From NCBI GenBank assembly GCA_022791195.1, contig JAAVYP010000051.1, positions 44,703-108,702 on the forward strand: a stretch of DNA of 64,000 nt, given 5' to 3'. The stretch is from Clostridiales bacterium (lineage in GTDB: Bacteria > Bacillota > Clostridia > Oscillospirales > CAG-272). How positions within the stretch are numbered: the first letter of the stretch is position 1; each line of letters opens with the position of its first letter. The notes below the pieces were generated by a model, which made no database searches, was not told the origin of the DNA, and saw nothing but the letters and a program-made list of their open reading frames with translations. The translations under genes were made by a program, and so were the position numbers. Positions 5,119 to 31,149 of this stretch are shown here, in pieces.

Positions 5119-5121
5119 TGT

Positions 5122-5159
5122 AAAAAAAGGACTTGGATCATACCGAAGTCCTTTTTTTA
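5122..5159. terminator. Bidirectional intrinsic terminator between convergent genes
   Basis: An A-run, then stem AGGACTT.. / ..AAGTCCT, then a T-run (aaaaaaaggacttggatcataccgaagtccttttttt). Confidence 0.6.
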
Positions 5160-5172
5160 TGGTTATTTTCAT

Positions 5173-8856: not shown

Positions 8857-9656
8857 TGTCCTATCTTGATCTGTCCATCCTTATATAGAATAGATAAAAA
8901 ATTCTGTTTGATAAAATACACCGTACAGCCGGCATCCCTGCCAGCCTGCTCTGCCTCACGGTTCGCTTTTTCTGTCTGCCATGGTGAAATAAACACCATA
9001 CGAGGCTTAGCCAGTGCAAGCAGCTTTTCAAATGCAAGCACATCATCACATCCAGACACAAAAGCAAAATCACAAGACAAGTCACAGTGTCCGTCTGCTA
9101 TGACAGAAGCTGCGTCCACGGCCGGCCAATACAATAATGTCTGTCCCGGAAAACCCGCCCTTACGACAATCGTCTGATTGACCATTTCTCTGTCGATTTC
9201 TTTGCCTGAAACCAGCAAATCGAGCCTGCCTTGTCCGACAGGCAGTGCCATATCTTCAGCAACCACAATCGGCATTATATCCTTGGTGCTTAAAGCAAAA
9301 TAATATTCTTTGACATATTCGTTACCCAAGCTGTAGGCCGGTTCATAGACCATGCCAATCTCCATATTTTTGATCAGCTTTTCAGCGCCGCCCATACAAT
9401 CTTTTGTGAAAGAAGAAATAATCAGCATATCTATCCTATTTATTTCTTGTTCCCGCAAATATTGCAATATTTTTTTCGCCTCTTCGGGACCGCCCGTATT
9501 GAGCAAAATAGTTTTGCCTTGGATTGTGAACAGTGTTGCAGTTGACTCGTCAAATGTAAATATGGCCGCTTCAAAAGCACAATCATCACTGCGGCTGCAA
9601 GCAAAAAGCGACAATGAAACAGCCAACGCAAACAAAAGGCAAACACTTCTTTTCAT
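8853..9656 (-). CDS. Lipoprotein with a degenerate metallo-beta-lactamase (ComEC C-terminal-like) fold
   Basis: Lipobox LFAC. MBL-like stretch ILLNTGG...IDMLIISSFTKDCMGG, in which the HxHxDH metal motif is replaced. The stop overlaps the M23 peptidase start (ATGA). Confidence 0.6.
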   Translation of the reverse strand: MKRSVCLLFALAVSLSLFACSRSDDCAFEAAIFTFDESTATLFTIQGKTILLNTGGPEEAKKILQYLREQEINRIDMLIISSFTKDCMGGAEKLIKNMEIGMVYEPAYSLGNEYVKEYYFALSTKDIMPIVVAEDMALPVGQGRLDLLVSGKEIDREMVNQTIVVRAGFPGQTLLYWPAVDAASVIADGHCDLSCDFAFVSGCDDVLAFEKLLALAKPRMVFISPWQTEKANREAEQAGRDAGCTVYFIKQNFLSILYKDGQIKIGQ

Positions 9657-9732
9657 TCTATATCCCTCAATCTTGTCTTACTTTACTTTTATTGTAAGAC
9701 CAAAATCGATAAAATAAACCGCTTCCAGCGGT

Positions 9733-12094: not shown

Positions 12095-12245
12095 TTTTCT
12101 TTGTCTACTGCGGCGCAGATTTTGACAGAGTGACCGAAACCGGTCACTCTGTCATTTTTTCTTTTTCCGCTTTGATTTGCGCCTTTACCTGAACGATCAT
12201 CCCCGCAAGCTTTTCTTCGCATTCCTCTCGCGTCTTAGCGTAAAT
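12095..12245. repeat. Direct repeat copy A (3' end of the 479-aa recombinase gene plus downstream hairpin)
   Basis: Aligns by eye with 22743-22891, roughly four-fifths identical, with two 1-nt indels. Confidence 0.8.
12124..12166 (+). terminator. Plus-strand hairpin plus T-tract embedded in the recombinase 3' end; likely terminates the zinc-ribbon transcript
   Basis: 13-bp stem GACAGAGTGACCG / CGGTCACTCTGTC followed by ATTTTTTCTTTTT on the plus strand. The recombinase stop codon lies inside the stem. Confidence 0.45.
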
Positions 12246-13583
12246 ATTATGGCTTTCGCGCTTGCCGTAGGCGTTGGTCGGCGTATACCGTCCTTCGTAT
12301 ATATGGTCGTTGATCATCGTTACACAACCTGTCCCAAGCTTGCGTATTTTGGGCGTATACGGCTTGAATTCGATCGGGGCGGTATCTTTCCTTGTCTGTT
12401 GATCAACCGTCGGCATTTGGGCGTCTGTGCCACCGATTTTGCGGTCAATCCGCACTGCCGCCTGCCTCTGCATCGTGTCGGTGATATGGCTGTAAATATC
12501 AAGCGTGGTTGCGGACGATACATGACCTATCGTAGCCGACAGCGTTTTCACATCCATACCGTGTTCCAACGCCATAGTCGCGAATGTGTGCCTGAGATCG
12601 TGGAAACGCACTTTTTTGCATCCTGCCCGTTCCAATATCAGTTGTAACCGCTTTCGGACAGACGACGGATTTCTCGGTCTGCTGTTATTCAGCGGTGACG
12701 GGAACATCCACTCCGAATCCACCGATTTTCTGTACTCCGCAAGTATCTTTACAAGTGACTGAGACAGTATCACCGTACGGACAGACGCCTTTGTTTTCGG
12801 CGCTGATATGATTACTTCTGCCTTGATAATATATACCTGCCGTTCGATGCGAAGCTCACCTGTTGAGAAGTTAAGATCGCTCCATTTGAGTGCCAGTATT
12901 TCACCTCGGCGCATTCCAGTACCAAGCTCCAACAAGAACAGTTCGTAATATCCCTCATCCTTTGCCTGATGAAGAAACCGCAGTATCGCATTTTGTGTCA
13001 GCACTTGCATCTCTCTCGCTTTTTTCGGCGGCAGTTTACAGCCGACAGCGGGATTTGTTCGGATCAGTCCGTCCTGCACTGCTCGCTGTAATGCTGTACG
13101 ACAATTGGCGTGTATCGCCCTTATCGTTCTGTCTGAAAGTCCCTTACCGAGTGTTTCGGTGTGCAGTTTTCTTCCGCCTGTCTTTTCCTTTGCATAGAAT
13201 TGCTGCAGATCGGATTGCGACAGCTTGTTCAGCGGAATTTTTCCGATTTCGGGAATAATGTGATTGTAGATGCGGTTTTCATAGTCGCTTTTTGTGGTGA
13301 TCCGAAGTGTGTGCCCGCAATAGGTCTGATACCAAAAGTCGATCCACTCACCGAATGGCATATCCGGCTTTATCTTTTCCGTGGCGCTGCCGTACTGTTC
13401 TTTCAGCGTTTCAAGCTTAGCGGCACATTCCGTTTTTGTTTTCGCCGTTACGCATTTCGTAATAGGCAGGCTTTTCTCATTGTACCCGACAACGATTCTC
13501 CCTTCCCAACGTCCGTCTTTGCGCAGGCGTAATGTGCCTTCACCGTTTTTTCGTTTTTTAGCTATTAGTATCATCTCCTTCAA
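12144..13583 (-). CDS. Tyrosine recombinase/integrase (479 aa) with a C-terminal extension that repeats the N-terminal arm-binding-like module
   Basis: Catalytic pattern MRRGE...HDLRHTFAT...IGHVSSATTLDIYSHI. N-terminus DGRWEGRIVVG...AKTKTECAAKL; C-terminus YEGRYTPT...AKTREECEEKL. Confidence 0.9.
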   Translation of the reverse strand: MKEMILIAKKRKNGEGTLRLRKDGRWEGRIVVGYNEKSLPITKCVTAKTKTECAAKLETLKEQYGSATEKIKPDMPFGEWIDFWYQTYCGHTLRITTKSDYENRIYNHIIPEIGKIPLNKLSQSDLQQFYAKEKTGGRKLHTETLGKGLSDRTIRAIHANCRTALQRAVQDGLIRTNPAVGCKLPPKKAREMQVLTQNAILRFLHQAKDEGYYELFLLELGTGMRRGEILALKWSDLNFSTGELRIERQVYIIKAEVIISAPKTKASVRTVILSQSLVKILAEYRKSVDSEWMFPSPLNNSRPRNPSSVRKRLQLILERAGCKKVRFHDLRHTFATMALEHGMDVKTLSATIGHVSSATTLDIYSHITDTMQRQAAVRIDRKIGGTDAQMPTVDQQTRKDTAPIEFKPYTPKIRKLGTGCVTMINDHIYEGRYTPTNAYGKRESHNIYAKTREECEEKLAGMIVQVKAQIKAEKEKMTE

Positions 13584-16933: not shown

Positions 16934-18817
16934 CTAATCAACATCATAAAAAACTAAACCGTCGGGGAATTTTATATTAGGAATCCAAATCTCTTTTCCC
17001 TCCCATCCCTTAGTACCTGTAACTTTATACATTGTTAACGATACTTGATCGGTTATTTTTGAAACCAGCGCACGATCATTAGGAGATAACAATGTTCCTG
17101 TTCCTTTTGCAATATCTCGGCCTCTTCTAACAATCAAAACTCCCTGTCTAGAGGGATCTTCTGATATATAGGAATTCAAGAAAGATAAATATGATTTCTT
17201 ATTCCAATCACCTTTTTCGCTATCAATCATTTGGATAATTTGATAAATCAATTGAAGGTTCACAGAATAGCCTTCGTTTTCGCTAAAAGCTGACAGAATA
17301 TTGTCAATTTGGGAAATGTCATCATTGGTTGGATAAAATGGAAAATAACTTACTCCGCCTACGAGCATATTCAAATGTGAATGATCAAGTACATTCTTCC
17401 TAGTTGGACGTAAAGTTTTCGGATAATACATTTTAATATCATCCGCGTTTTTTGCTTTCTTAATTTGATTAATAATGGAATTGTTAGTTTTATTAATCTC
17501 GCTAAACCGTTTAATTAATAACGGAGGCATGAAGACTCGCACAAGTCCTGGATCTCTATCGTATCCAAACATTCTCGAGTGCTGCCACATCGTATCTGCC
17601 TGAGGATTTTTAGCAACTCTGCAATAATATATTGTTTGAAGCATGGGGAAAGTAATGCCTCTTCCCAAACTATTGCCGCCCACAACTATATTGAGCCCTG
17701 TTTCATATCGTATGTTTTCATCATAAGAAGCTTTTGAATTGATAACCAAAACATTAATTTGATCGTTTTCAAGTGCTTCCTTTATGTATGAGTAAATGTC
17801 ATCAAACGGTGCAATATCCGGCTTTGTAGTTTTGAAATTTTCGTATGTTTGCTGTAATGTTTCAATAGTACAATCTTCGTCAATAGAAAGATTCAATTCA
17901 TTTAAATATTCTCCAATTTTATTAGCGAACTTTTGATGTTCAGAAACTTTAACGCTTGGATGAACAACAAAGTTACTAACTTGAGAACCATTAAGAAACA
18001 AATGCGCGGATGATACCAAGTGCATTAATAACGCTTGTTTTAATCCGTTTTCAGGAAATTCATCATCTGATAAAAGCTCTTTTCCTTCATCATTGTCTGT
18101 CGGTATGACATACGGACAGTTCTCATCAGAAAAGAAAAAGTCACCTCCAAGATATCCTGCTCCGGGCTCAAAATAATATATAAACGCGGGTTTCCATCCG
18201 GCAATTTTAGTTTGCAACAATAAAGACTGCGGGGTACCTGTCACTTGTAAATAAATGCTGCTAGCGCTTGTTTTCTTGATAGCGTTAAGAGTTCTATTTA
18301 TTGCACTTACATCCTTTTGATTAACTTTGGTATTAGGACTGGCTGCATCTGCCTCATCATCAACAATAAATAGAGGATTGCCTGCGCAGAAATTTGTAGA
18401 ACTAAAATTGTTTTTCCACTGTTTCAGAACATGAACATTCTTCTTCAATACGATCAACACAGGCTTTTTCAATGCATTGGCTTGAAAACGAATATAGTCA
18501 TTTTCTCCGCACACACAAAATGTATCCAAATCGGCAAGAGCGCGTTTAAATGTTTGTTCTTGTAACAATGTGTTATCAGTTGTTAGCAATACAAAAATAT
18601 TAAAACCTTCATCCGCAGCAGCGGCAATAAGTCCAAACATATGGCTTGTTTTTCCGCTTTGTACATTTCCCATAAGGAGACTAACAATATGCTCTCGATA
18701 TGAAAAGTTTGAAATATATTGAGGTACAATATCATTAATCGTTTTCTTCACAGCATCCGCAAGTGATGCTCTGTTTCGTTGTAATAATTCGTTTATGTAA
18801 TTTTCTGCGTGACTCAT
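16934..18817 (-). CDS. Z1-domain SF2 helicase-like ATPase (H/N subunit of a CglI/NgoAVII-like restriction enzyme)
   Basis: Walker A GNVQSGKT, DEAD-like IVDDEADAAS, TGTP, GGNSLGRGITF. The ATG at 18817 overlaps the nuclease stop as ATGA, with GGAGTGAG upstream. Confidence 0.8.
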   Translation of the reverse strand: MSHAENYINELLQRNRASLADAVKKTINDIVPQYISNFSYREHIVSLLMGNVQSGKTSHMFGLIAAAADEGFNIFVLLTTDNTLLQEQTFKRALADLDTFCVCGENDYIRFQANALKKPVLIVLKKNVHVLKQWKNNFSSTNFCAGNPLFIVDDEADAASPNTKVNQKDVSAINRTLNAIKKTSASSIYLQVTGTPQSLLLQTKIAGWKPAFIYYFEPGAGYLGGDFFFSDENCPYVIPTDNDEGKELLSDDEFPENGLKQALLMHLVSSAHLFLNGSQVSNFVVHPSVKVSEHQKFANKIGEYLNELNLSIDEDCTIETLQQTYENFKTTKPDIAPFDDIYSYIKEALENDQINVLVINSKASYDENIRYETGLNIVVGGNSLGRGITFPMLQTIYYCRVAKNPQADTMWQHSRMFGYDRDPGLVRVFMPPLLIKRFSEINKTNNSIINQIKKAKNADDIKMYYPKTLRPTRKNVLDHSHLNMLVGGVSYFPFYPTNDDISQIDNILSAFSENEGYSVNLQLIYQIIQMIDSEKGDWNKKSYLSFLNSYISEDPSRQGVLIVRRGRDIAKGTGTLLSPNDRALVSKITDQVSLTMYKVTGTKGWEGKEIWIPNIKFPDGLVFYDVD

Positions 18818-19875
18818 CTTCTCACTCCAAAATCTATGTACCATTTATCAGATTGTTCTAACTTTGTTAATGTGAAACTTGTTCGACCGTAGCGTACTAA
18901 CGTTTCTTGCATTACAGGTTCACCAACTCTTAATACACCAGCGTTTTCAAGACGGCCTTTTATCCATTTCCCTAAAATTTTCAGGTCATTTTCAGATCTG
19001 AAATTTTTGTTGTTTTGTCCACTAACTTTACATGAAAATTCCCATCCGTCATCAGTTATAACATTGAATACAGCATCCTCGGTTCTGCTAATCGGATAAT
19101 TCGGAAGTGTTGCAATTTCCGCAGGTACGATCAATTCAATCTCATACCAATGTCTTGGCATAATTAAACCATTTGGAGTTCTTCGTCCCTCACCAAAAAA
19201 TACATTCAAATTACTTCTAGGCGCAACCTCGTATCCTTTTAGCGGAATTTCAAAACTAATATTTGACAAATGATTTCGATAAGCTTCTACATCCGGTTCA
19301 GATATTTTCCGAACATGTTCATGATTTTCGAGAAGCGGATTGGCATTTCTGAATTCAGTTATTTCTATATTCGAAATAACATCCGATGATCTTGCGCTTA
19401 AATCAGCAATAAAACCATTAAGCTGATTAACTATAGGCTGCTGAGAAACAAGAATAGCCGATTCATAAGTTCTATGTCCGCTGTCTATGATGCTACTCAA
19501 ATTATTCGAGCCAATTATACCGCTTTGTGCATTACCGTTTTGATTCACAAATGAATAAAGTTTTCCGTGGTACATGAAAGTGGTTACCAAATTAACTTGT
19601 CCGATATGATTTTCTCGCAAAAATGAATTGAGATCGAGAGCGGCATTGTATTCCAAAGCTGTAAATTTTTCAAAATAATGCATGCCGATTGTAAGATTCA
19701 TTCTGTGAATATCATTTTGTTCTACCATTCCTTTTAATTCAGTTAAAGAATCAGCTGTTATATATCCAACCGAAATATCTGCACCTTTATGAATTTGTAA
19801 CTGTTCATAAAAACATTCAGAAAACTTTCTAAATGGCGTTCTCATTGGCGGTAAGTTCGAAAACAACAACTCCAT
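18814..19875 (-). CDS. PLD-family (NgoFVII-type) restriction endonuclease with a C-terminal B3-like DNA-binding domain
   Basis: Single HKD motif (YHGKLYSF...GIIGSNNLS). The C-terminal beta-rich domain (WYEIELIV...WEFSCKVSGQNNKNFRS) is laid out like BfiI/NgoAVII. Confidence 0.75.
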   Translation of the reverse strand: MELLFSNLPPMRTPFRKFSECFYEQLQIHKGADISVGYITADSLTELKGMVEQNDIHRMNLTIGMHYFEKFTALEYNAALDLNSFLRENHIGQVNLVTTFMYHGKLYSFVNQNGNAQSGIIGSNNLSSIIDSGHRTYESAILVSQQPIVNQLNGFIADLSARSSDVISNIEITEFRNANPLLENHEHVRKISEPDVEAYRNHLSNISFEIPLKGYEVAPRSNLNVFFGEGRRTPNGLIMPRHWYEIELIVPAEIATLPNYPISRTEDAVFNVITDDGWEFSCKVSGQNNKNFRSENDLKILGKWIKGRLENAGVLRVGEPVMQETLVRYGRTSFTLTKLEQSDKWYIDFGVRR

Positions 19876-19888
19876 AATATGATACCTC

Positions 19889-20992
19889 TTACTTCATTTC
19901 ATTATTAATGCGCTCCAAGCGTTCTTGTACGGATAATTCTTTTAGTTCCTCATATTCTTTTTCTAAATCAACACGCTTATATTCATCTGTAAATAGCGGC
20001 ATCAATCTCTTTGCAACAAGACGTACTCCTTCAGGCGGAACAGCATTACCAATTTGCCTGCGTACCTCTGTAATATTACCTGCAAATACGAAATCATCGG
20101 GAAAAGATTGTAATCTCGCTCTTTCTCGGTTTGTAAGAGGACGAGGCTCTGGATAATGATATCCCCATGTTCCTCCACCACCGGCAGCAATAATTGTTTT
20201 TGCAGGTTCATTTCGGTTTATACGGCGATAAACATGACTTATCATACCTTTGACATATAACGGACTGTCTTTAGGTATATCTGTAAAATTGCCTCCCTCC
20301 GGAATTAATTCTAACATTTGACGTGTTTTTTCTTTGCAGCCCAACGGCTCATTGTTAAAAGGTACTTTCTCAACATCTTTAAGTGCTTCGCCTGCGGTAA
20401 AATATGGTTTGTTTGTACTTGGACCGCATATTGGTTTTGGATGTACAAAATTAAAACCGGTGTCTTTTCGTATTCCAACTATCAAAACTCGTTCTCTAAA
20501 TTGAGGTACACCATATTCTGCAAAATTGTACAAATGCGGCTTGACAATATACCCAGGTGCAATTGTTTCGAAATCCTTGATAATAACATCGATAGCCTTT
20601 CCTTTGTTTGCAGTAAGCAATCCTTTAACATTTTCTGCAACAAAAGCCTTCGGCTTTTTTGCATCAACAAACTCCGCAAAATGACGGAACAAACCGCCGC
20701 GTTTTCCATTTAACCCCGGTTGCTTCCAGATAATTGAGAAGTCTTGACAAGGAAAACCTCCTAAAACCAAATCGCATTCCGGGATATCTTTGTCTTGGTA
20801 TGGGTTTATTTGAGTAATATCTCCGTGAACAATTACATTTCCAAAATAATTAGCAAATGATTGACAAGCCCATTCAGAAAAGTCGTTTGCCCATACTGTA
20901 TCATATCCTTCCAAATGAAATCCAAGATCTAATCCTCCGCAGCCGGAAAACAAAGAAATAACTTTTGGTTTGTTATTGTTGCTTATAACCAT
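19889..20992 (-). CDS. DNA (cytosine-5) methyltransferase
   Basis: Motif I FSGCGGLDLGF, IV GGFPCQDFS, VI ENVKGL, VIII QFRERVLIVG, X GNAVPP. Confidence 0.92.
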   Translation of the reverse strand: MVISNNNKPKVISLFSGCGGLDLGFHLEGYDTVWANDFSEWACQSFANYFGNVIVHGDITQINPYQDKDIPECDLVLGGFPCQDFSIIWKQPGLNGKRGGLFRHFAEFVDAKKPKAFVAENVKGLLTANKGKAIDVIIKDFETIAPGYIVKPHLYNFAEYGVPQFRERVLIVGIRKDTGFNFVHPKPICGPSTNKPYFTAGEALKDVEKVPFNNEPLGCKEKTRQMLELIPEGGNFTDIPKDSPLYVKGMISHVYRRINRNEPAKTIIAAGGGGTWGYHYPEPRPLTNRERARLQSFPDDFVFAGNITEVRRQIGNAVPPEGVRLVAKRLMPLFTDEYKRVDLEKEYEELKELSVQERLERINNEMK

Positions 20993-20993
20993 T

Positions 20994-21425
20994 TTAAATA
21001 CCTCTTCCTGTTTGTAAAGATCTTTCTATTAACTCGACACATCTATCAGTTTCTTTTAATATTTCAGTTTCCCAAAATCTATGAACAATCCAGCCTTGTT
21101 CTTCTAAGGTCTGAGTCACTTCTATATCACGTTCAATGTTGCGCTTGATTTTTTGTTTCCAATATGAAGAATTTGTTCCTATTCGATCAACGCAAGCATG
21201 ATAATCCTTTCCGTGCCAAAATTCACTATCGCAAAACACGGCCACTCTTTTACTGATAAAAACTATATCTGGTTTTCCGATAAGTTTTTTGTAGTTTTTT
21301 CTATATCTATAGCCTTTTGCCCATAGCGCCTTTCGCAGAACAACTTCGATTTTACTATCTTTTGACCGAATTGCTTGCATATTCTTTTTTCTCTGCTCAG
21401 GAGTGTGATTATCCACATTAATCAC
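20994..21425 (-). CDS. vsr: Very-short-patch repair endonuclease
   Basis: MQAIRSKDSKIE..., GKPDIVF, FCDSEFWHG. The stop is 1 nt from the methyltransferase start. Confidence 0.88.
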   Translation of the reverse strand: MINVDNHTPEQRKKNMQAIRSKDSKIEVVLRKALWAKGYRYRKNYKKLIGKPDIVFISKRVAVFCDSEFWHGKDYHACVDRIGTNSSYWKQKIKRNIERDIEVTQTLEEQGWIVHRFWETEILKETDRCVELIERSLQTGRGI

Positions 21426-21476
21426 CCCCTTACATTAACTATAGTATCACAACTGATGTCCCATAAAACGTACTTA

Positions 21477-22343
21477 CTATATTTTGGAAAAATATTCTTC
21501 ATCAATTTCATAGTCCTTTATCTCTCTTACACCAATACCGTATTCAGCCAACTTAGTCATAAACTCTTCGCCGTCAATTAAATCTATTTGCTGTTTTCCA
21601 GGATTGCTAGCTTCTTCGATAGCTGGCTTCGAAAAAGATCCTGTTGTTATAAAAACTCCTTTTTCAATATCAGTTGTCAGAGAACCGCGAAAATCTCTTA
21701 TCTCGGCAGCACCAACAGACCCTTGATAACGCTTGCACTGAAACGCTATATTAAAACTAAAAATACCGTTAATTCTTAATTTTCCAGTTCCGTCAATGCC
21801 TCCGTCTCCGGATTTTTTAGTAACATGTACATCATCGAATCCACATTCTCTTAAGAGTCTTTGAGAAAGCTTTTCAAAAGAATATGGATTCATTTGAATT
21901 AATACTTCATATAACTTTTTTCGCCACGGTTTAATTTCATCAGGTAAATCTAAGCCACTATTTTCGAGTTGGTCATCTGAAATTTCCGGAAAACTATTAG
22001 GCTTGGCTCTTTGATGAAAATTCTTTTGAATATATAACCCGTCAACAGACTTTTTATTTGAAAAATTTGGTGTTATTGTCCAAACACTTCTTGCGCTATT
22101 GGCAATTGCACCATAGTTTTTTAACAGTGTTCTAGCCCATGCTAATCTATAATGAATTTCAGACAAACTTGTACTGTTAAGGTGAGGAATATCTAAAATT
22201 TCATCTGACAATTTTAAGCCTGAAATTGCTTTTGCGTTGATTTCATCGTTTTTCCCCGAACCTCCAAGATCTCTTAGCGCAACATATGTTGCCTCCACAA
22301 GCTGAGCATATGTCGGCATCTGTATATTTTCGTTTTGTTTCAT
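21477..22343 (-). CDS. mrr: Mrr-family Type IV (modification-dependent) restriction endonuclease
   Basis: N-terminal Mrr_N-like winged helix; C-terminal catalytic core GDGGIDG...QCKRY. Confidence 0.85.
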   Translation of the reverse strand: MKQNENIQMPTYAQLVEATYVALRDLGGSGKNDEINAKAISGLKLSDEILDIPHLNSTSLSEIHYRLAWARTLLKNYGAIANSARSVWTITPNFSNKKSVDGLYIQKNFHQRAKPNSFPEISDDQLENSGLDLPDEIKPWRKKLYEVLIQMNPYSFEKLSQRLLRECGFDDVHVTKKSGDGGIDGTGKLRINGIFSFNIAFQCKRYQGSVGAAEIRDFRGSLTTDIEKGVFITTGSFSKPAIEEASNPGKQQIDLIDGEEFMTKLAEYGIGVREIKDYEIDEEYFSKI

Positions 22344-22349
22344 TTACAA

Positions 22350-22571
22350 CTACCTCGCAATATTCTTGTTTGAAACTATTTCTACGATATCATCCATTTT
22401 ACAATCAAGTGCGGTACATATCTTTACCAGTACATCGCTGCTGACAACAGCGCCGTCCTTTCCCATCTTAGTGATGGTAGCGATGCTGATGCCGGCTTTT
22501 TCGGCGAGTTCTTTCTTTTTCATATCACGGTCGATCAAAAGCTTGAACAATTTTTTATAGCTTGCGGCCAT
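22350..22571 (-). CDS. XRE/Cro-type HTH regulator (73 aa), first gene of the defence operon
   Basis: MKKKELAEKAGISIATITKMGKDG. The stop is 6 nt from the mrr start. Confidence 0.8.
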   Translation of the reverse strand: MAASYKKLFKLLIDRDMKKKELAEKAGISIATITKMGKDGAVVSSDVLVKICTALDCKMDDIVEIVSNKNIAR

Positions 22572-22623
22572 TGTATTACACCTCGTAAGTCGTTATAGTC
22601 AGTGCATTGTATCACTAATATAT

Positions 22624-22652
22624 AGCATACCACACACTCCGTTGAATTTCAA
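22624..22652 (-). promoter_or_regulatory. Promoter of the HTH-mrr-vsr-MTase-R-H operon, with a palindrome over the -35
   Basis: On the minus strand: TTGAAA, 17 nt, TATGCT with an upstream TG. The perfect palindrome GTTGAATTTCAAC (22641-22653) overlaps the -35. Confidence 0.5.
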
Positions 22653-22742
22653 CAGCTTTCGGCAGATAAATCCTGCGATTGCAGTATTTATCGACTTTTT
22701 GTTGCAAATACACCATTCCATTTCTTGTACTTTCATATTCCC

Positions 22743-22891
22743 TTTTCTTTGTCTACTGTGTCGCATATTGTGACAGGGTACTGAAAACAGTCACCCTGTC
22801 ATTTTTCTTTTCCCGCTTTGATGTGAGCCTTGATCTGCACAATCATTTCCGCAAGTTTTTCTTCACACCCCTCTTGCGTCTTGGCGTAAAT
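22743..22891. repeat. Direct repeat copy B
   Basis: Aligns with 12095-12245. The hairpin is retained with a compensatory change (GAG/CTC in copy A vs GGG/CCC in copy B). Confidence 0.8.
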
Positions 22892-22895
22892 TTTT
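22799..22895 (-). pseudogene. 3'-terminal remnant (about 30 codons) of a second, related tyrosine recombinase
   Basis: Translates to IYAKTQEGCEEKLAEMIVQIKAHIKAGKEK*, versus IYAKTREECEEKLAGMIVQVKAQIKAEKEKMTE* in the intact gene. Nothing homologous lies upstream of it. Confidence 0.75.
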
Positions 22896-22901
22896 ATTTC
22901 C

Positions 22902-23548
22902 CTAATATGTTATCCGGTGTGAAATAAACACTGCTGAGCATCCTACGGTCAGCTCGTGATAGCTCTGATAAATCTCGCTCTCCGCAATCAGGTCAAGCGC
23001 TGCGGTGGGCTCATCGAGAATTAACACAGGCGCATCCTTATACAGCGCACGGGCAAGTATCAGGCGCTGGGGCTGTCCGCCTGAAAGTTCTATGCCGTCC
23101 ACGTGTACCGTCCTGCCGAGATAATGATCATAACCGTTCATAAACATGAACACCCAATTCACAAAGTCGGTGATAGCATGAAAGTACAATAAAAAACTCA
23201 GATACCGCCCAGCCGTCATCGTGACGAGATACGCATAAGATATACCGTTGCGGAGCAGGAAAAGCAACTGGTCTAAAACTTTGACCGCTAAATACCGCGC
23301 CTTTATCCTGCGGAAAAATGCGCGGTATAACCCAATCGTGCGTTCATAAATGCCCATAAGCCATGCCTGCAAACCAAAGATGCGAATATCCTTCGCCATC
23401 GCAATATTTTGTGAACATTCGAGCACATATCGTAACTCGCCCCTTCTGCATTCTGCCGATACTCCCAGTCATTTACCCGCTACGCAAACGAAAAAATATG
23501 TACCGTATTCTGCCACAGATTATATTTAGATATTTTTAGATTTTTCAC
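22902..23548 (-). pseudogene. Decayed ABC exporter (fused TMD-NBD type): N-terminal 22 codons, stop, internal deletions, truncated C-terminus
   Basis: AAGGAGG plus GTG gives MKNLKISKYNLWQNTVHIFSFA*. A later frame reads ...KDIRIFGLQ...LSGGQPQRLILARAL...LILDEPTAALD...FISHR. There is no Walker A, only about 200 codons remain where a full-length fused exporter would be several-fold longer, and it ends at the junction with the recombinase remnant. Confidence 0.75.
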
Positions 23549-23649
23549 TATACCTCCTTTGTAAACTTTTTTATATCGAACGAAATAACACATTAACATA
23601 AAGTTTATAATGCTCAATTCATTAAATTCATATAATTCGCAGCGATACT

Positions 23650-25335
23650 TTATTTTAAGTTAGATTCATTTTCGAATTTTCTTAATACAACGCGGTGATT
23701 ATCTGTATCTGATATAAAAAACATACCATCTATTCCTGGACACAGCCAACGAGGTATTGATAATTTTTTATCATCCAAACCGCGTCCTTCTCCGAAAATA
23801 TATTTTATATGACTTGCATCGTGATTGCAAACATAGATCTGTGAAGTACCGCTATTAACAATATATAAATATTCATCATTCATCAACATCATACGCGGCT
23901 TTTTAAGACATACTTCTTCGTTTTTATACATAAACTTTTGTATAACAGTAACCTCGTTGTCCTGAATAAGCAGCCCACGATTATTGCCTGTATCAGATAT
24001 TAAGATTCGATTGCCGCTTAAAAATTGGGCGTGATGAATATCTCTCATATGTAACTGCAAATCCTGCGTCGACCAAATTATCTCTTCAGTATTTATATCG
24101 AATAAAATCACCTCTGTTTCAAAGGCTATTAACATAATATTCCAATGTAAATCAACAGCTTGTATCCATTGATTTGGCAAAAAGTTTGATGGAATATCGA
24201 TCTTTTGTTTTATTTTATAATACTGATCCAGAATAACGATATTTCGCAAAACACTGTTTGCAACGATTAAATCATTCTCCAACCACTTAACACAGCGGGG
24301 CCAGTGCAAACCGGGAATGACAGATTCATTAATCGTTTCAATGATTTCACCCTCCATATTGAAAACAAGTATTTGATCATGATATGTATCTGCCACAGCT
24401 AAAAGTTGCTTTGACGGCGAGTAATCACACGCCCGGGGAAAATTCATTTTTGATTCGATTATGACAGGCCGGCCATAATAATCTTCCACATTTTTACCAT
24501 CATCCGTTACTTTTCTTATATATATATTGGCGCCTTTACACATGACAACAAAGAGACTGTCATTGATAAATACAGCTTGCGGCGCCCACAAAAAAGAAGT
24601 GTCACAACCAACGTGATTTGTCACTCCAAATTGATGAACTATTTTATTCGTAAAGTAATCTACTATAATAATTCGGTGAGATCTTTGTTCCGAAATCACC
24701 ACAAAATCCCCTTTTTTGATAGCATTTACAGGTACACTTAATTGATTTGGTAAACTTCCGGGCGTATTGAATTCACCATATTGCCAGTATATATGCAGTG
24801 AACTGTCAATGAGACGAACCGTACTATTTGAACTATCCGTAATTAAAAATCTATCATCAAGTTTTTGTACAAAATACGGTTCAATTGCATGAATCATTAG
24901 TAAGTCTAAATCCAGTGTAATGCCAAAGTCGTCTTTTGAGATAACCAATAATCGCGCCGGCTGCATAGTTATTATTATTTCATTTTCGGTTTCAGTCAAA
25001 AAAAGAGGTTTGTTATTTTTGTATTTCTCAAAAATAATTGTTCGCAATAATGCATTGTTCTGGTATACGACCAGTTTTAACGGCTTACTGCACAAATAAT
25101 ATATCTGATTATCAAAACATGATTCAAGTTGTGCAACTATATTTTTTTCATTTGAAGCTGTGCTCTCAACATACCCTTTATCAATATGTATAGTGTTACT
25201 GAAACCATGAGCAAATTCTTCGCGAAAAACAAATTGATTTTTACTATTTACTCCACAGAATTTTATATATCCATTAAACTGTTCTTTCACCTTCTGAACT
25301 GGATATACAACACCAAAATCACATTCTAACATCAT
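23650..25335 (-). CDS. Cytoplasmic NHL-repeat beta-propeller protein (561 aa) with an unassigned N-terminal region of about 150 aa
   Basis: NHL-like blades (VADTYHDQILVF, ISDTGNNRGLLI, FISDTDNHRVVL). No signal peptide or TM helix. Intact long ORF in very AT-rich DNA. Confidence 0.7.
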   Translation of the reverse strand: MMLECDFGVVYPVQKVKEQFNGYIKFCGVNSKNQFVFREEFAHGFSNTIHIDKGYVESTASNEKNIVAQLESCFDNQIYYLCSKPLKLVVYQNNALLRTIIFEKYKNNKPLFLTETENEIIITMQPARLLVISKDDFGITLDLDLLMIHAIEPYFVQKLDDRFLITDSSNSTVRLIDSSLHIYWQYGEFNTPGSLPNQLSVPVNAIKKGDFVVISEQRSHRIIIVDYFTNKIVHQFGVTNHVGCDTSFLWAPQAVFINDSLFVVMCKGANIYIRKVTDDGKNVEDYYGRPVIIESKMNFPRACDYSPSKQLLAVADTYHDQILVFNMEGEIIETINESVIPGLHWPRCVKWLENDLIVANSVLRNIVILDQYYKIKQKIDIPSNFLPNQWIQAVDLHWNIMLIAFETEVILFDINTEEIIWSTQDLQLHMRDIHHAQFLSGNRILISDTGNNRGLLIQDNEVTVIQKFMYKNEEVCLKKPRMMLMNDEYLYIVNSGTSQIYVCNHDASHIKYIFGEGRGLDDKKLSIPRWLCPGIDGMFFISDTDNHRVVLRKFENESNLK

Positions 25336-25559
25336 TTCCCCACACTCCTATCCAATTTTGATTTTGTCTTATTAGCGCAAATAAGACAGCGCCCCACTTT
25401 CATTAAGGCGCCTCTTACTTTTTGATAATTAAGATACTCTGCAAAACTTTTAATTTTATCAACAAACACGATCCCGTCTAAAGTGTTAAGACATACTTTA
25501 TTTGAATCAAATGAGATTACAGTTGCAAACATAAAATCACTTATTAACTCTCCAATCAC
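25332..25559 (-). CDS. Small hypothetical protein (66-75 aa), translationally coupled to the NHL gene
   Basis: The stop overlaps the NHL start as ATGA. Start is either GTG at 25559 or ATG at 25532. No recognisable motif. Confidence 0.45.
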   Translation of the reverse strand: MIGELISDFMFATVISFDSNKVCLNTLDGIVFVDKIKSFAEYLNYQKVRGALMKVGRCLICANKTKSKLDRSVGK

Positions 25560-25940
25560 TTCTATATTTTAAAATTCAACACTTCACAAAGACTCTTGAT
25601 CCATAAGTTTTTTTGATTAAACAAAACATCCATGCGTTAAGTGGGGGTTCAGGTGGGAAACATGTTAACGCATTTGCACTTTAAAAATAAATCTGTATAT
25701 TTTTCTAATAATAGATTACTATATTTTAGTGTATTTGTCAACAACTTTTTTGTTTTTAGTCACAAAAAATACATTTTTATAAGTATATTTTTCACAAAAC
25801 CGTATCATTTGATACAATGATTGTTTTTCGACAAAATTCCCGTAAATCGATTTCTTCGTGTAATTAAATTTAGATATCGCCAAACTGTCTAATAAAAATA
25901 AGATTAAATCTATATATTATTTTATGATGGTTCCGAAAAT

Positions 25941-25978
25941 ACAAAAAGGCAGAGAGTAAAAACTCTCTGCCTTTTGTT
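25941..25978 (-). terminator. Intrinsic terminator of the MBL hydrolase gene
   Basis: Stem AAGGCAGAGAG / CTCTCTGCCTT followed on the minus strand by TTTTTGTATTTT. Confidence 0.7.
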
Positions 25979-25992
25979 CGATCTGATGATTA

Positions 25993-26754
25993 TCATAATT
26001 CAATGGTCTGCCCGTCGTGGGCTGCTATAATTGGATGGGAGAAAATAGCTTTTGCGGCGGCCAGCTCTTCTTCCAAATGATCCTGCATCCACGGTCCATG
26101 ATGGGTAAAGAGTAATGTGCCCACCGTTTTGCCGCCTTCCTCGACCGTGCGAGCCACATCCGCTGCGCGATGATGGCCTGTCTCGGTAATGAGAATATCG
26201 CATGGCAGCATCGATTCATAATCGGCATATCCTCGTGTATCGCCCGTATAAACAATTCGCTTGCCTTCTGCTTCAATCAAAAAGCCAAATGAACGCCAGC
26301 CATCAGCATTCTTTTCCAAATGATGATTGTGCAGTGCGCTGACTTTTATATCATCGTCACATAATATGCCATCCGTCATTTTGTGCGGAAAAATCTCCCA
26401 AGATTTTTCAAAATTTTCTTCCGTATGTTTTAAGATTTCTTCTAAATGATTCCATACAGCTGGTTCAGGCAAGTATAAATCAACATCACATGCTTCTCTT
26501 GATTCGACCCAACAACACTTGCGGATATTCCAAAACAAATTGCCAAGGCCGCCTATATGATCCATATGTGAATGGGATATAAAAATCTTTCGGGTACGCA
26601 AAAGATCAACACCCATCAGATAAGCGGTATACGAACAATTTTCCCCCGCGTCAAACCAATAAAAACCGTTTTGCGTTTCGAGTGCAAACGAACAATGATG
26701 CCGTCCTGGCCTTGGTTCTGTACCAGAACATGAACCAAAAATATGAAGCTTCAT
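25993..26754 (-). CDS. MBL-fold metallo-hydrolase
   Basis: Intact HSHMDHIGG motif and downstream His/Asp ligands (TGDT, ETGHH). Confidence 0.8.
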   Translation of the reverse strand: MKLHIFGSCSGTEPRPGRHHCSFALETQNGFYWFDAGENCSYTAYLMGVDLLRTRKIFISHSHMDHIGGLGNLFWNIRKCCWVESREACDVDLYLPEPAVWNHLEEILKHTEENFEKSWEIFPHKMTDGILCDDDIKVSALHNHHLEKNADGWRSFGFLIEAEGKRIVYTGDTRGYADYESMLPCDILITETGHHRAADVARTVEEGGKTVGTLLFTHHGPWMQDHLEEELAAAKAIFSHPIIAAHDGQTIEL

Positions 26755-27085
26755 ATTACTTTCTCCTTTGTTAAATCAAAATATGGTATGGACAAAAATG
26801 CTGTCTTGTTTTTTCCTTTTTATTACTTATAAAAAATACAAAATGACGAATATCTTTATTATATTTTATAATCCGTCCTGTGTCAATTGCAAAATAACAT
26901 AGCACGGCTGTACCCGGCCTGCAAACTCAAATGTACTATCTTTATATGCATATCGTCTTGTTTCTACAACGCTGCGTTGAGTTACTCTTATACAAACCTC
27001 AAACAAGCGTTTATTGAAATAAACAGAGAAATATGCTACAGTAAGGACAAGGGATCCCAGCCTCATTTCAGAAAGGATAAAAGAT

Positions 27086-28240
27086 ATGTATAACATCGAT
27101 AAACTCGGAAGCAAAATTACAGCAGCACGTAAAGCACTTGGACTTACACAGGAACAATTAGCAAAAGAATTATCCGTTACCGCTCAGGCAGTATCCAAAT
27201 GGGAAAGCGGCGCAGGCTTTCCGGATATATCCCTTATTCCGGAAATTGCCCAAATACTGCAAATTCCAATCGACCATTTGTTTGGATACTGCAATGGATT
27301 TGATGAGACGTACCAAGGACTCCCGTTCATTACCAGTTTTGGCAAAACCGCCTGCTATTCAGACAAAGAAGTAGATGTTATCTATCCAGACGGCATCGTC
27401 TATTTCAAAGACCGAAGCGCAGCAAACATTCCGTCACTAACCGTTGATAATTATGGAAAAGGTGAAATTCGTTTTTGTACAAAAGAAACATTTGGCCGCT
27501 CTTTCAAAAACGATAAAACAGGAGAATACAAATATATTTGTTCTGGAATAGAGTGGCTTGAACTAACCGTTTACGAAGCGGACGAGATTCATATTTTCCA
27601 TAGCGAGGATGAAAACACTCATATTATGGCCTATGGCAGTGAATGCTTTACTTCTTCCATAAGATCCTCGAACGATAGAAACAAGCTCTGCCTTACACAA
27701 GAAGCCAATGCAATACAAAAAGGAACTGAACCAAACCGAATTGAAATTTATACTCCCAGCGCACCGCAGCTGTTAACACTAAATCTATATGGAGATACCA
27801 ATGTCATGGTTGAATGTGACTTTGCAGAATTGGGCGTCAGCGTATATAATAAAGCTGAGATTCATTGCCAAAATACTGGTTTACTCGGCATATATGCTCC
27901 GGGAACTTGTTATTTTACCTGCGCGCGTGCGGATGGTGCGAATATAGAAATAAATGGCGCAGCCACCATTGAAATTGAAGAACCGCATAAATATGTCCAT
28001 CTTACTTCAAGCGGTGATTGCAATGTTAACCTTGGCAATGCTCATATTGATTATTTAGAAACCAATCTAAGCGGTACAGGAATATTAAATGCCCCTGATC
28101 TCACCGTACAAAATGCGAAACTCTGCGCACAAAATCAAAACGATATTATATTAGGCCGCATTGTGGAATATTCCTATGAAGCACTGCGAAACAATGCACA
28201 ATTAAGCGTCAGGCATCGTGGATGGAATGAAAATGATTAA
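27086..28240 (+). CDS. XRE-family HTH protein with a C-terminal domain of about 310 aa and unknown function
   Basis: LGLTQEQLAKELSVTAQAVSKWESG. The C-terminal part is repetitive and beta-rich, with no assignable motif. Confidence 0.7.
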   Translation: MYNIDKLGSKITAARKALGLTQEQLAKELSVTAQAVSKWESGAGFPDISLIPEIAQILQIPIDHLFGYCNGFDETYQGLPFITSFGKTACYSDKEVDVIYPDGIVYFKDRSAANIPSLTVDNYGKGEIRFCTKETFGRSFKNDKTGEYKYICSGIEWLELTVYEADEIHIFHSEDENTHIMAYGSECFTSSIRSSNDRNKLCLTQEANAIQKGTEPNRIEIYTPSAPQLLTLNLYGDTNVMVECDFAELGVSVYNKAEIHCQNTGLLGIYAPGTCYFTCARADGANIEINGAATIEIEEPHKYVHLTSSGDCNVNLGNAHIDYLETNLSGTGILNAPDLTVQNAKLCAQNQNDIILGRIVEYSYEALRNNAQLSVRHRGWNEND

Positions 28241-30663: not shown

Positions 30664-31149
30664 TTATTTTCCGAATATTTTATGAAAAATATTTTTCTTC
30701 AATATCGCTTTTGCCGTTACTGACCTTGGGAATGGTTCATCTAACATCCACGAAAGCCTAATTCCACGAACAGACATCGTAAAATATTCTTCCGTTTGTT
30801 CATTAGGTGAAGCAAAGCCTTTGACGACAACTATACTTAAAAACAAATTATCATAAACATCAACTTTATATTCGCCTACTGATTTTACATTTCCGCAAAC
30901 AGTATAATCCACACAGATATAATCAATACAATCATCATCTGCTATAACACTCATTATTTCATCTGGTTTTGCAATGTCAACACCAAATTCGCTTAAAAAA
31001 TCATTTAATTTAGGTAATTTTTCTTTAATTTGAGTGCAACAGTTGCGACATAATGCGCAGTCACAAACAGAATGGGTTTTATAATACTTTTTTGTTTTTT
31101 CAGTATCAACATAAAAAATACATTCATCTTTTTGAATTGCTGTCATCAT
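30664..31149 (-). CDS. Hypothetical Cys-rich protein (161 aa), AT-rich orphan
   Basis: CDCALCRNCC cluster. No recognisable family. Confidence 0.5.
   Translation of the reverse strand: MMTAIQKDECIFYVDTEKTKKYYKTHSVCDCALCRNCCTQIKEKLPKLNDFLSEFGVDIAKPDEIMSVIADDDCIDYICVDYTVCGNVKSVGEYKVDVYDNLFLSIVVVKGFASPNEQTEEYFTMSVRGIRLSWMLDEPFPRSVTAKAILKKNIFHKIFGK

What the first reader, a model, noticed from the sequence alone, without database searches (positions are those of the whole stretch)
22902..25560. AT-rich orphan module: small ORF translationally coupled to a cytoplasmic NHL beta-propeller protein, followed by a decayed ABC exporter
This segment is conspicuously AT-richer by eye than the flanking core genes. 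It sits immediately beyond the island scar, i.e. in the same variable hotspot. A 66-75-aa ORF ends in ATGA with the start of a 561-aa protein. That protein has NHL-type blades (..ISDTGNNR.., ..ISDTDNHRV.., ..VADTYHDQ..), an unassigned N-terminal region of about 150 aa and no export signal. A 1.7-kb ORF staying open in such AT-rich DNA argues for purifying selection. Ninety nt downstream, with its own AAGGAGG, is an ABC exporter now reduced to fragments, so the original unit was small protein, NHL protein, exporter. That layout recalls peptide-maturation/export or toxin/immunity gene sets, and its location next to restriction genes also fits an uncharacterised defence function. I recognise no described system with this composition.
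Basis: partly seen in the sequence, partly recalled or inferred. Interest (0 to 1): 0.55.

Follow-up and report, generated by a model that had tools for sequence, protein, structure and literature searches.

The report
Lone propeller gene from decayed cassette
The "small ORF + NHL protein + broken exporter" is the eroded wreck of a rare, uncharacterised mobile gene cassette (small kinase, methyltransferase, double beta-propeller protein) in which only the propeller gene is still intact; the small ORF is the leftover first ~55 codons of the kinase gene, not a partner protein.

Summary
The interpretation needs correcting.

- The NHL protein belongs to a rare family (9 clusters in 5.8 billion proteins). 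A confident model shows beta-propeller blades along its whole length, probably 6+6, so the "unassigned" N-terminus is more blades.
- In relatives the conserved partners are a Bud32/RIO-like small kinase and a HemK/PrmC-type N-methyltransferase immediately upstream. All three are fused in one 1072-aa protein. ABC exporters are often nearby.
- The small ORF has no homologue of its own. Its residues 12-52 match the N-terminus of that kinase (HMM E = 0.0014 among 1851 window ORFs; 0 of 2000 shuffles; hhalign E = 9e-5). A roughly 1.5-kb deletion therefore removed the rest of the kinase gene and the whole methyltransferase.
- The exporter carries a nonsense codon and large deletions, and abuts an integrase 3' scar.
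- The propeller keeps 36 of 36 family-conserved residues. Parvimonas genomes show the same loss of partners with the propeller spared (dN/dS about 0.28).

The cassette's function is unknown and appears undescribed. This copy is a relic.

The parts
25560..25992 (-). AT-rich (26.8% GC) spacer between the terminator of the upstream MBL-fold hydrolase gene and the small ORF. Presumed promoter region of the remnant operon.
   Evidence: GC. A 14-bp-stem terminator at 25975-25944 follows the MBL gene. No Rfam family reaches significance. No promoter was shown.
25332..25559 (-). Small ORF (75 aa from GTG). It is the 5' stub of a Bud32/RIO-like small kinase gene ('PKL'). Its tail runs into the NHL start with an ATGA overlap.
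   Evidence: HMM of 6 PKL proteins against all 1851 window ORFs: top hit E = 0.0014, 14.9 bits; next best E = 1.8. 0 of 2000 shuffles reach it (maximum 7.8 bits). hhalign E = 9.1e-5. No homologue as a protein in its own right.
25404..25526 (-). The part of the small ORF that is homologous to the kinase N-terminus (ATVISFDSNKVCLNTLDGIVFVDKIKSFAEYLNYQKVRGAL). The deletion junction lies between here and 25336.
   Evidence: Aligned to PKL profile positions 10-50. Compare L021: DKVISYNSERVKFEVVSKKPTVIKNTNYFEYLNYIEARRLL.
23650..25335 (-). Intact 561-aa cytoplasmic NHL-repeat protein, predicted to be a tandem beta-propeller (about 12 four-stranded blades, probably 6+6).
   Evidence: Pfam NHL above cut-off. 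9 homologue clusters at 34-50% identity over the full length. AF2 pLDDT 92.5, pTM 0.90, all-beta. Best PDB fold matches are tandem propellers such as Utp21 and Aip1. TRIM-NHL domains are the closest solved sequences. 36 of 36 family-conserved positions kept.
23480..23559 (-). RBS (AAGGAGG, 23553-23559), GTG (23548) and the first 22 codons of an ABC exporter gene, ended by TAG (23480-23482) where a relative has Trp.
   Evidence: Sequence. Window 'FSFA*RVNDWEYR' compared with L008 ABC2 'FSLAWRFDWRK' by eye. This similarity was not tested statistically.
22902..23479 (-). Remaining ABC exporter fragments. These are a frame-shifted piece of the membrane domain fused to the signature, D-loop and H-loop part of the ATPase. 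Walker A is missing and the C-terminus is cut off. About 1.1 kb of a roughly 1.75-kb gene is lost.
   Evidence: Pfam ABC_tran covers only profile positions 93-137 of 137. NCBIfam MsbA positions 452-530 of 572. HMM of cluster-associated ABC exporters covers positions 470-547 of 591 only. GC is 48%.
22743..22909 (-). Integrase 3' scar. It holds the last ~31 codons of a tyrosine recombinase paralogous to the one at 12144-13583, plus downstream DNA. It forms a 154-bp direct repeat with 12095-12248.
   Evidence: blastp-short: 77% identity over 31 aa, E = 1e-12. blastn: 82% over 154 bp, E = 2e-38.

Best explanation
The segment is the eroded remnant of a rare, horizontally moving accessory cassette.

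The ancestral core was three genes in a row:
- a small Bud32/RIO-like protein kinase ('PKL', about 280 aa; WLDFAPRN...VDFE[KR]G motifs);
- a HemK/PrmC/RsmC-type N-methyltransferase (NPPQ motif);
- a roughly 560-aa cytoplasmic tandem NHL beta-propeller.
Type-B ABC exporter(s) usually lie nearby.

In this genome:
- A deletion of about 1.5 kb removed everything after roughly codon 55 of the kinase gene and the whole methyltransferase gene. This left a 75-codon stub ORF that runs into the propeller's start codon.
- The exporter gene acquired a nonsense codon at codon 23 and lost about two thirds of its length.
- The exporter's 3' end now abuts the last 31 codons of an integrase gene.
- Only the propeller gene is intact.

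Inferred mechanism:
- In intact cassettes the propeller is the substrate-binding platform that physically works with the kinase and the methyltransferase. The three are fused in one polypeptide in at least one relative.
- A ring of conserved Arg/Gln/His residues sits at the start of the innermost strand of each blade of the second propeller (R301, R347, Q392, H434, R481, R529). I suggest it binds an anionic, possibly phosphorylated, ligand.
- Here that pathway cannot run. The propeller is either kept for a job it can do alone or has simply not decayed yet. I lean slightly towards the former.

What is shown and what is inferred:
- Shown: gene anatomy, homology, partner conservation, the fusion, the decay.
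- Inferred: the platform role, the ligand type, and any present-day function.
For: Family and partners:
- Only 9 homologue clusters exist, all full length.
- PKL + MTS + NHL lie in a row in L005/6, L008, L009, L021 and L023.
- P0011 is one 1072-aa protein with PKL (1-265), MTS (270-525) and NHL (525-1070).
- In L008 the MTS reading frame appears to run into the NHL N-terminus.
- PKL has a kinase fold by weak hits: Pfam ABC1/Pkinase E ~ 1e-3, NCBIfam Bud32 3e-5, PADLOC PD-T4-6 9e-8.
- MTS gives HemK/PrmC/RsmC-type hits.

The stub:
-.
- No MTS trace remains in the window.

Parallel decay elsewhere:
- Parvimonas parva L011 keeps a 72-aa C-terminal MTS stub directly upstream of an intact NHL gene.
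- Relative to the intact L023, the deletions are L011 8332-9764 and L012 8350-9604. L028 similarity begins only 74 nt before the NHL start.
- dN/dS between solo and triad NHL genes is 0.27-0.30.

State of the window copy:
- The window NHL keeps 36 of 36 positions that are at least 90% conserved in 18 other members.
- ABC decay.
- Integrase scar.

Propeller fold.
Against: - The stub homology rests on about 41 residues at 33% identity (hhalign probability only 59%). It is statistically clear but short.
- The exact deletion junction is not mapped.
- The nearest relative is under 50% identical, so dN/dS cannot be measured for the window gene itself.
- The dN/dS of about 0.28 in Parvimonas averages over time before the deletions.
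- Some relatives lack PKL/MTS altogether (L007, L022, L024) and have other kinases instead. The 'triad' is therefore the core of one subfamily, not of the whole family.
- The ABC remnant is 48% GC against 34% for NHL, so it may not share its history with NHL. The same GC jump is seen in L008 and L001.
- The platform/ligand mechanism is inference from fold, conserved residues and the fusion. No experiment or complex model supports it.
Confidence: 0.8

Rival explanations
1. A functional two-gene module in which a small protein is translationally coupled to the NHL protein (toxin/immunity, precursor/maturase or defence pair), originally with its own exporter.
For: ATGA overlap and an internal RBS. 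ABC exporter directly downstream here and in L009. Location beside restriction genes.
Against: The small ORF has no homologue anywhere, and was not even called in the deposited MAG. It is absent upstream of every relative. It is explained as a kinase 5' stub. PADLOC finds nothing for either protein.
Confidence: 0.04
2. The whole locus, including the NHL gene, is functionally dead. The propeller ORF is intact only because the deletions are recent.
For: Everything around it is broken. Relatives show frameshifted NHL genes (L008, L010) and IS insertions (L021). The family looks dispensable and patchy.
Against: 36 of 36 conserved positions are retained. A 561-codon ORF is open in 34% GC DNA. In three Parvimonas-type genomes the upstream genes are eroded to different extents but NHL is always spared, and dN/dS is about 0.28.
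Confidence: 0.35
3. The cassette family is a tailoring, immunity and export module of a secreted secondary metabolite or modified peptide. The lone propeller and exporter were retained for a time as orphan self-protection genes after the modifying enzymes were lost.
For: Neighbours of relatives include: acyl-AMP ligase + carrier protein + two ABC exporters + glycosyltransferase (L005, L008); NTP_transf_5 (L001, L008, L024); radical SAM + HPr-kinase-like + glutamine-synthetase-like + GNAT (L022). Kinases of three different families sit immediately upstream of NHL: PKL, APH in L024, and HPrK-like in L022 (the last below the Pfam cut-off).
Against: No precursor peptide or core biosynthetic enzyme was identified. 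The ~340-nt gaps upstream of NHL in L001, L005 and L021 hold no conserved small ORF. Neighbourhoods differ greatly between loci. The exporter remnant shows no peptidase domain.
Confidence: 0.3
4. The kinase-methyltransferase-propeller cassette is an undescribed anti-phage or abortive-infection system, with the propeller as sensor. The window holds a disabled copy in a defence island.
For: The window copy adjoins Mrr, Vsr/Dcm/REase genes and an integrase scar. L008 lies beside OLD-TOPRIM ATPase, reverse transcriptase and relaxase genes. Relatives sit on ICE/integrase contexts. PKL resembles the PD-T4-6 defence kinase and MTS resembles MADS mad2 at domain level.
Against: The matches are domain-level only. 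NHL itself matches no PADLOC model. No relatives were found on phages or plasmids. The Parvimonas copy lies between metal-uptake ABC importers. Many contexts look biosynthetic.
Confidence: 0.15

Closest known systems
NHL-repeat six-bladed beta-propeller domains of TRIM-NHL proteins (Thin, TRIM71/LIN-41, TRIM2/3, Brat) and NHLRC2
   Same: These are the best sequence matches among solved structures (E = 1.5e-16 to 1e-8). They share the [IV]xDxxNxR[IV]-type blade motifs and act as binding platforms rather than enzymes.
   Different: Those are single six-bladed domains attached to RING/B-box or thioredoxin modules in eukaryotes. This one is a stand-alone bacterial protein made entirely of blades (about 12) and is genetically tied to a kinase and a methyltransferase.
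Tandem beta-propeller proteins (Utp21, Pwp2, Aip1, LRP6 E1E2)
   Same: Best whole-chain fold matches (Foldseek E = 1e-17 to 1e-13), consistent with a two-propeller architecture.
   Different: TM-scores are only 0.30-0.38 and identity is 8-13%. They are WD40/YWTD types, not NHL. There is no functional link.
Beta-propeller partner subunits of methyltransferases (Trm82/WDR4 with Trm8/METTL1; MEP50/WDR77 with PRMT5). From my own knowledge, not tested here.
   Same: A non-catalytic propeller bound to a methyltransferase as a substrate-presenting platform. This is the working analogy suggested by the MTS-NHL fusions.
   Different: There is no sequence relationship. Those are eukaryotic WD40 proteins. 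Here there is also a kinase, and the methyltransferase is of HemK/PrmC type.
PD-T4-6 defence kinase and the MADS mad2 methyltransferase (PADLOC models)
   Same: Domain-level similarity of the partner genes found in relatives (E = 9e-8 and 5e-18).
   Different: The similarity covers only the catalytic domains. Architectures and gene sets differ, and neither partner is present in the window.
Orphan immunity or resistance genes left after loss of bacteriocin or antibiotic biosynthetic genes (a general pattern, from my own knowledge)
   Same: One gene of a cluster is repeatedly retained intact while its neighbours erode (window; L011, L012, L028).
   Different: No toxic product or protective activity is known for this family.

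Membership tests
NHL-repeat beta-propeller superfamily (Pfam PF01436) | Sequence match to the NHL repeat model above the curated cut-off | tested here: met
   25 bits against a cut-off of 20. Relatives score 27-47 bits.
NHL-repeat beta-propeller superfamily (Pfam PF01436) | Profile similarity to experimentally solved NHL domains over several blades | tested here: met
   Thin NHL E = 1.5e-16 (residues 157-375). TRIM2 E = 6e-10 (residues 305-544, nearly a whole six-bladed domain).
NHL-repeat beta-propeller superfamily (Pfam PF01436) | Four-stranded antiparallel blades arranged as a propeller | tested here: met
   AF2 pLDDT 92.5. About 12 groups of four strands between residues 23 and 552. Propeller matches in PDB. 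The 6+6 split is inferred; coordinates were not inspected.
Kinase-methyltransferase-NHL cassette (defined here; not a published family) | Intact Bud32/RIO-like small kinase gene upstream | tested here: not met
   Only an N-terminal stub of about 41-55 residues remains.
Kinase-methyltransferase-NHL cassette (defined here; not a published family) | HemK/PrmC-type methyltransferase gene between the kinase and NHL | tested here: not met
   No tblastn hit. No HMM hit better than E = 2.6 anywhere in the window.
Kinase-methyltransferase-NHL cassette (defined here; not a published family) | Full-length ~560-aa NHL protein orthologous to those in the triads | tested here: met
   41-49% identity over the full length to the NHL genes of L005, L021 and P0011.
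Translationally coupled two-gene toxin/antitoxin-like or precursor/maturase pair | Small partner gene conserved next to homologues of the large gene | tested here: not met
   No homologue of the small ORF in L001-L010 or in the 5.8-billion-protein collection.
Peptide (RiPP/bacteriocin) maturation-export cluster | Precursor peptide gene, recognised maturation enzyme, and peptidase-containing or dedicated exporter | tested here: inconclusive
   None is present in the window. The exporter remnant has no peptidase domain and matches bacteriocin exporters no better than MsbA/CydDC. Relatives have radical SAM, HPrK-like and NTP_transf_5 neighbours, but no precursor was found. antiSMASH was not available.
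Known anti-phage defence systems (PADLOC-DB v2) | Match of the component proteins to a defence-system model | tested here: not met
   No family matches the NHL protein or the small ORF. The ABC remnant hits only the generic ATPase part of mad3.
Functional type-B ABC exporter | Six-helix membrane domain plus an ATPase with Walker A, Q-loop, signature, Walker B and H-loop in one frame | tested here: not met
   Stop after codon 22, a frameshift, and Walker A and the Q-loop absent. Only profile positions 93-137 of 137 of ABC_tran remain.
Beta-propeller lyases/hydrolases (Vgb, PAL, SMP-30/lactonase) | Sequence similarity to these enzymes and their metal/catalytic residues | tested here: not met
   None appears among 41 PDB sequence hits. 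Pfam Lactonase E = 0.19, below cut-off. Catalytic residues were not examined.

The most novel reading that the evidence does not exclude
The kinase-methyltransferase-tandem-NHL-propeller cassette is a new kind of mobile-element-borne system, for example a toxin/antidote-like, defence or metabolite-tailoring module. In it the propeller has an autonomous protective or antidote role. That would explain why selection repeatedly keeps it intact while the kinase and methyltransferase genes are deleted, as seen in this window and in three Parvimonas-type genomes.
Probability: 0.2. Interest if true: 0.65.

Novelty: new variant of a known kind. Interest (0 to 1): 0.4.

Why it matters
For this window the result is a clean re-annotation. 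The 'orphan module' is not a new two-gene system but a relic, and the small ORF should not be treated as a gene.

The by-product is more interesting. There is a very rare NHL family, only 9 clusters at 90% identity and 168 representatives below E = 1e-30 (many of them giant multi-repeat NHL proteins rather than members). It forms an all-propeller protein tied by synteny and gene fusion to a Bud32/RIO-like kinase and a HemK-type N-methyltransferase. It is carried on mobile elements of gut and oral Firmicutes. I found no description of it.

If the propeller is a phospho-ligand-binding platform or an antidote, this would be a new bacterial use of NHL domains and a testable three-component system. 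The better experimental starting points are the intact triads (the L023/Parvimonas type, or the P0011 fusion), not this window.

Tried and rejected
- Small ORF as a remnant of the methyltransferase C-terminus. My first guess came from a 'YxNY' look-alike. The MTS HMM does not hit it at all, and the motif belongs to the kinase N-terminus instead.
- Riboswitch or leader RNA upstream of NHL. Rfam finds nothing significant in 22000-27200. The only hit in the relatives is a dfrA-dnaX motif in L011.
- Conserved small ORF or precursor peptide in the ~340-nt gaps upstream of NHL in L001, L005 and L021. None was found.
- Phage origin. No relatives in IMG/VR or GenBank phages. BFVD fold hits are generic propellers.
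- Plasmid carriage. Only domain-level hits.
- Nearest intact relative of the ABC remnant. The search returned mostly ATPase fragments at 60-70% identity over under 50% of the query, which is uninformative about origin. The N-terminal resemblance to L008 ABC2 is by eye only.
- Exact-sequence look-up of the window's own NHL protein. Not on record.
- Literature searches for an NHL/kinase/methyltransferase cluster or NHL defence systems. Nothing relevant.
- dN/dS for the window gene itself. Not attempted, because the closest relatives are under 50% identical and synonymous sites are saturated.
- Census of kinase-methyltransferase pairs lacking NHL.
Full report
**1. What is in the sequence**

All features lie on the minus strand.
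- An MBL-fold hydrolase gene (25993-26754, 44% GC) ends in a strong terminator at 25975-25944.
- A 27%-GC spacer follows.
- Next is a 75-codon ORF (25332-25559). Its TGA overlaps the ATG of a 561-codon ORF (23650-25335) as ATGA, with AGGAG 9 nt upstream of that ATG.
- About 91-97 nt after the NHL stop lies AAGGAGG (23553-23559). It is followed by GTG (23548), 22 codons and a TAG.
- Beyond that lie frame-shifted pieces of an ABC exporter, ending in a 174-aa ORF (22902-23426).
- That ORF joins part of a membrane domain directly to the LSGGQ, D-loop and H-loop part of the ATPase. There is no Walker A and the C-terminus is truncated.
- Immediately after come the last ~31 codons of a tyrosine recombinase. 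They are 77% identical to the C-terminus of the integrase at 12144-13583.
- 22743-22894 forms a 154-bp, 82%-identical direct repeat with 12095-12248. This repeat brackets the restriction-modification island.

The ABC remnant is 48% GC, not AT-rich. The NHL gene and small ORF are 33-34% GC against 42% for the window.

**2. The NHL protein**

- Pfam NHL is above its cut-off.
- A profile of the family hits solved TRIM-NHL domains: Thin at 1.5e-16, then TRIM71, TRIM2 and Brat. It does not hit Vgb or PAL-type propeller enzymes.
- The family is rare. There are nine clusters in 5.8 billion proteins, at 34-50% identity and nearly all full length.
- An exhaustive profile search adds about a dozen more distant full-length members. 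The other hits are generic NHL proteins matching only residues ~150-550.
- The AlphaFold model is confident (pLDDT 92.5, pTM 0.90). It is all-beta from residue ~23 to 552, with about twelve four-stranded blades.
- The best PDB fold matches are tandem propellers such as Utp21, Pwp2, Aip1 and LRP6.
- The 'unassigned' N-terminal 150 residues are therefore more blades, and the protein is probably a 6+6 double propeller. TRIM2's six-bladed domain aligns to residues 305-544.
- Conserved residues are mostly blade motifs. One conserved polar or basic residue precedes the innermost strand of each blade of the second propeller: R301, R347, Q392, H434, R481, R529.
- I read this as a ring at the central channel suited to an anionic ligand. 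That is inference.

**3. What the relatives show**

The conserved partners are not a small ORF.
- *The triad.* In L005/6, L008, L009, L021 and L023 the NHL gene is preceded by two genes.
  - One encodes a protein of up to ~290 aa with motifs WLDFAPRN...VDFE[KR]G. Several copies are 177-186 aa and appear truncated or cut by a contig end.
  - The other is a PF05175 methyltransferase with an NPPQ motif.
- *The kinase-like partner.* It gives weak kinase-fold hits: Pfam ABC1/Pkinase ~1e-3, NCBIfam Bud32 3e-5 and PADLOC PD-T4-6 9e-8.
- *The methyltransferase partner.* It gives HemK/PrmC/RsmC-type hits.
- *Fusions.* P0011 is a single 1072-aa protein with all three parts in the same order. In L008 the methyltransferase frame appears to run into the NHL N-terminus.
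- *Other kinases.* More distant subfamilies have a different kinase directly upstream. L024 has an APH-family kinase. L022 has an HPr-kinase-like protein (below the Pfam cut-off) next to a radical SAM enzyme.
- *Recurrent neighbours.* These are type-B ABC exporters (L005, L008, L009, L023, L024), an acyl-AMP ligase with a carrier protein (L005, L008) and NTP_transf_5 (L001, L008, L024).
- *Mobile-element genes.* These are frequent: TraG and M23 peptidase, integrase and resolvase, relaxase, transposases.

**4. The small ORF**

- It has no homologue in the protein collection. Even its own sequence is absent, so it was not called in the deposited MAG.
- No related locus contains it.
- An HMM of six kinase-like partners was searched against all 1851 stop-to-stop ORFs of the window. 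The small ORF was the top hit (E = 0.0014, 14.9 bits). The next best was E = 1.8.
- None of 2000 shuffles of the ORF exceeded 7.8 bits.
- hhalign gives E = 9e-5 over the same 42 columns.
- The aligned part (25404-25526) corresponds to positions 10-50 of the kinase N-terminus. The rest of the ORF has no detectable match.
- No trace of the methyltransferase remains.

The simplest reading is a deletion of about 1.5 kb, running from roughly codon 55 of the kinase gene to just before the NHL start. The ATGA 'coupling' is thus a by-product, or at most a leftover of the native methyltransferase/NHL junction. I could not test that.

**5. Decay versus retention**

Decay of this cassette is common.
- L021 has IS elements between the three genes.
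- In L008 all three genes are truncated or frameshifted.
- L010 is a frameshifted solo NHL.

The closest parallel is in Parvimonas, measured against the intact triad L023.
- P. parva L011 lacks 8332-9764 and keeps a 72-aa C-terminal methyltransferase stub abutting NHL.
- L012 lacks 8350-9604.
- L028 matches only from 74 nt before the NHL start.
- All three NHL genes are intact. dN/dS against L023 is 0.27-0.30.

In the window, the NHL protein keeps 36 of 36 positions that are at least 90% conserved in 18 other members.

This pattern favours some selection on the propeller alone, but it does not prove it. The deletions may be recent, and dN/dS averages over earlier history.

**6. Function**

I found no published description. 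No PADLOC model matches the propeller. There are no relatives on phages or plasmids.

My best mechanistic guess is this. In intact cassettes the propeller is the binding platform for a substrate that the kinase phosphorylates and the N-methyltransferase methylates. The fusion and the synteny support a physical partnership.

What the cassette is for is open.
- Tailoring, immunity and export of a secreted metabolite or peptide: about 0.3.
- An undescribed defence or abortive-infection system: about 0.15.

In this window the pathway is broken. The propeller is either an orphan still useful on its own or a not-yet-decayed relic.

**7. Verdict**

- The window copy is a remnant, so its own interest is modest.
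- The cassette it points to is rare, apparently undescribed and testable.

Noticed in passing
window 12095-12248 and 22743-22894: A 154-bp direct repeat (82% identity). Each copy covers the 3' end of a tyrosine-recombinase gene plus about 50 bp downstream. The repeats bracket the ~10.5-kb island that carries two integrases and the restriction genes. This looks like tandem accretion of related elements at one site, with the older integrase reduced to its last 31 codons.
   Followed up: partly
window 16934-22571 (minus strand): AT-rich (35-38% GC) restriction island. It holds an HTH regulator (22350-22571), an Mrr-type endonuclease (21477-22343), a Vsr-like gene (20994-21425), a C5-cytosine-methyltransferase-like gene (19889-20992), and 353-aa and 636-aa ORFs that overlap by 31 nt. 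Only the HTH and Mrr genes were checked against Pfam.
   Followed up: partly
L011 9671-9745 (Parvimonas parva NZ_JACVDA010000004.1): An Rfam dfrA-dnaX RNA motif (55 bits, above the gathering score). It lies in the scar left by deletion of the kinase and methyltransferase genes, about 250 nt upstream of the solo NHL gene.
   Followed up: no
L008 14003-17628; L001 4331-5281: Sharp GC mosaicism inside what look like single operons. The ABC genes are 56-58% GC, while the flanking NTP_transf_5, acyl-ligase, kinase, methyltransferase and NHL genes are 32-40% GC. This could be recent gene replacement or an assembly chimera. The same jump (48% against 34%) is seen in the window.
   Followed up: no
L021 2111-3385 and about 4500-5620: Two GC-rich (~50%) insertions with transposase-like ORFs split the kinase, methyltransferase and NHL genes of an otherwise intact triad. 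The sequence just upstream of NHL is shared with L001 and L010.
   Followed up: no
L007 (whole locus): This NHL homologue (39% identity) sits among nucleotide-metabolism genes: ribonucleotide reductase large subunit, dCMP deaminase, thymidylate kinase, MazG, HisG, a PurM-like AIRS protein and glycosyltransferases. A thymidylate-kinase-like gene also follows NHL in L005. The set resembles a phage-like or nucleoside-product gene set. No viral contig matched.
   Followed up: no
L011 5640-9457 and 11913-15824: In Parvimonas parva the solo NHL gene lies between a ZnuABC-type metal importer and an iron(III)/polyamine-type ABC importer. This is a chromosomal context quite unlike the mobile-element contexts of other members.
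   Followed up: no
window 25993-26754 (minus strand): An MBL-fold hydrolase with a weak, sub-threshold resemblance to the anti-Pycsar nuclease Apyc1 (E = 0.079). It is followed by a very strong terminator. It is probably an ordinary core gene.
   Followed up: no
window 30664-31149 (minus strand): A second small AT-rich islet (30.7% GC) encoding a Cys-rich 161-aa ORF, set between ~43-46% GC genes. Not examined.
   Followed up: no
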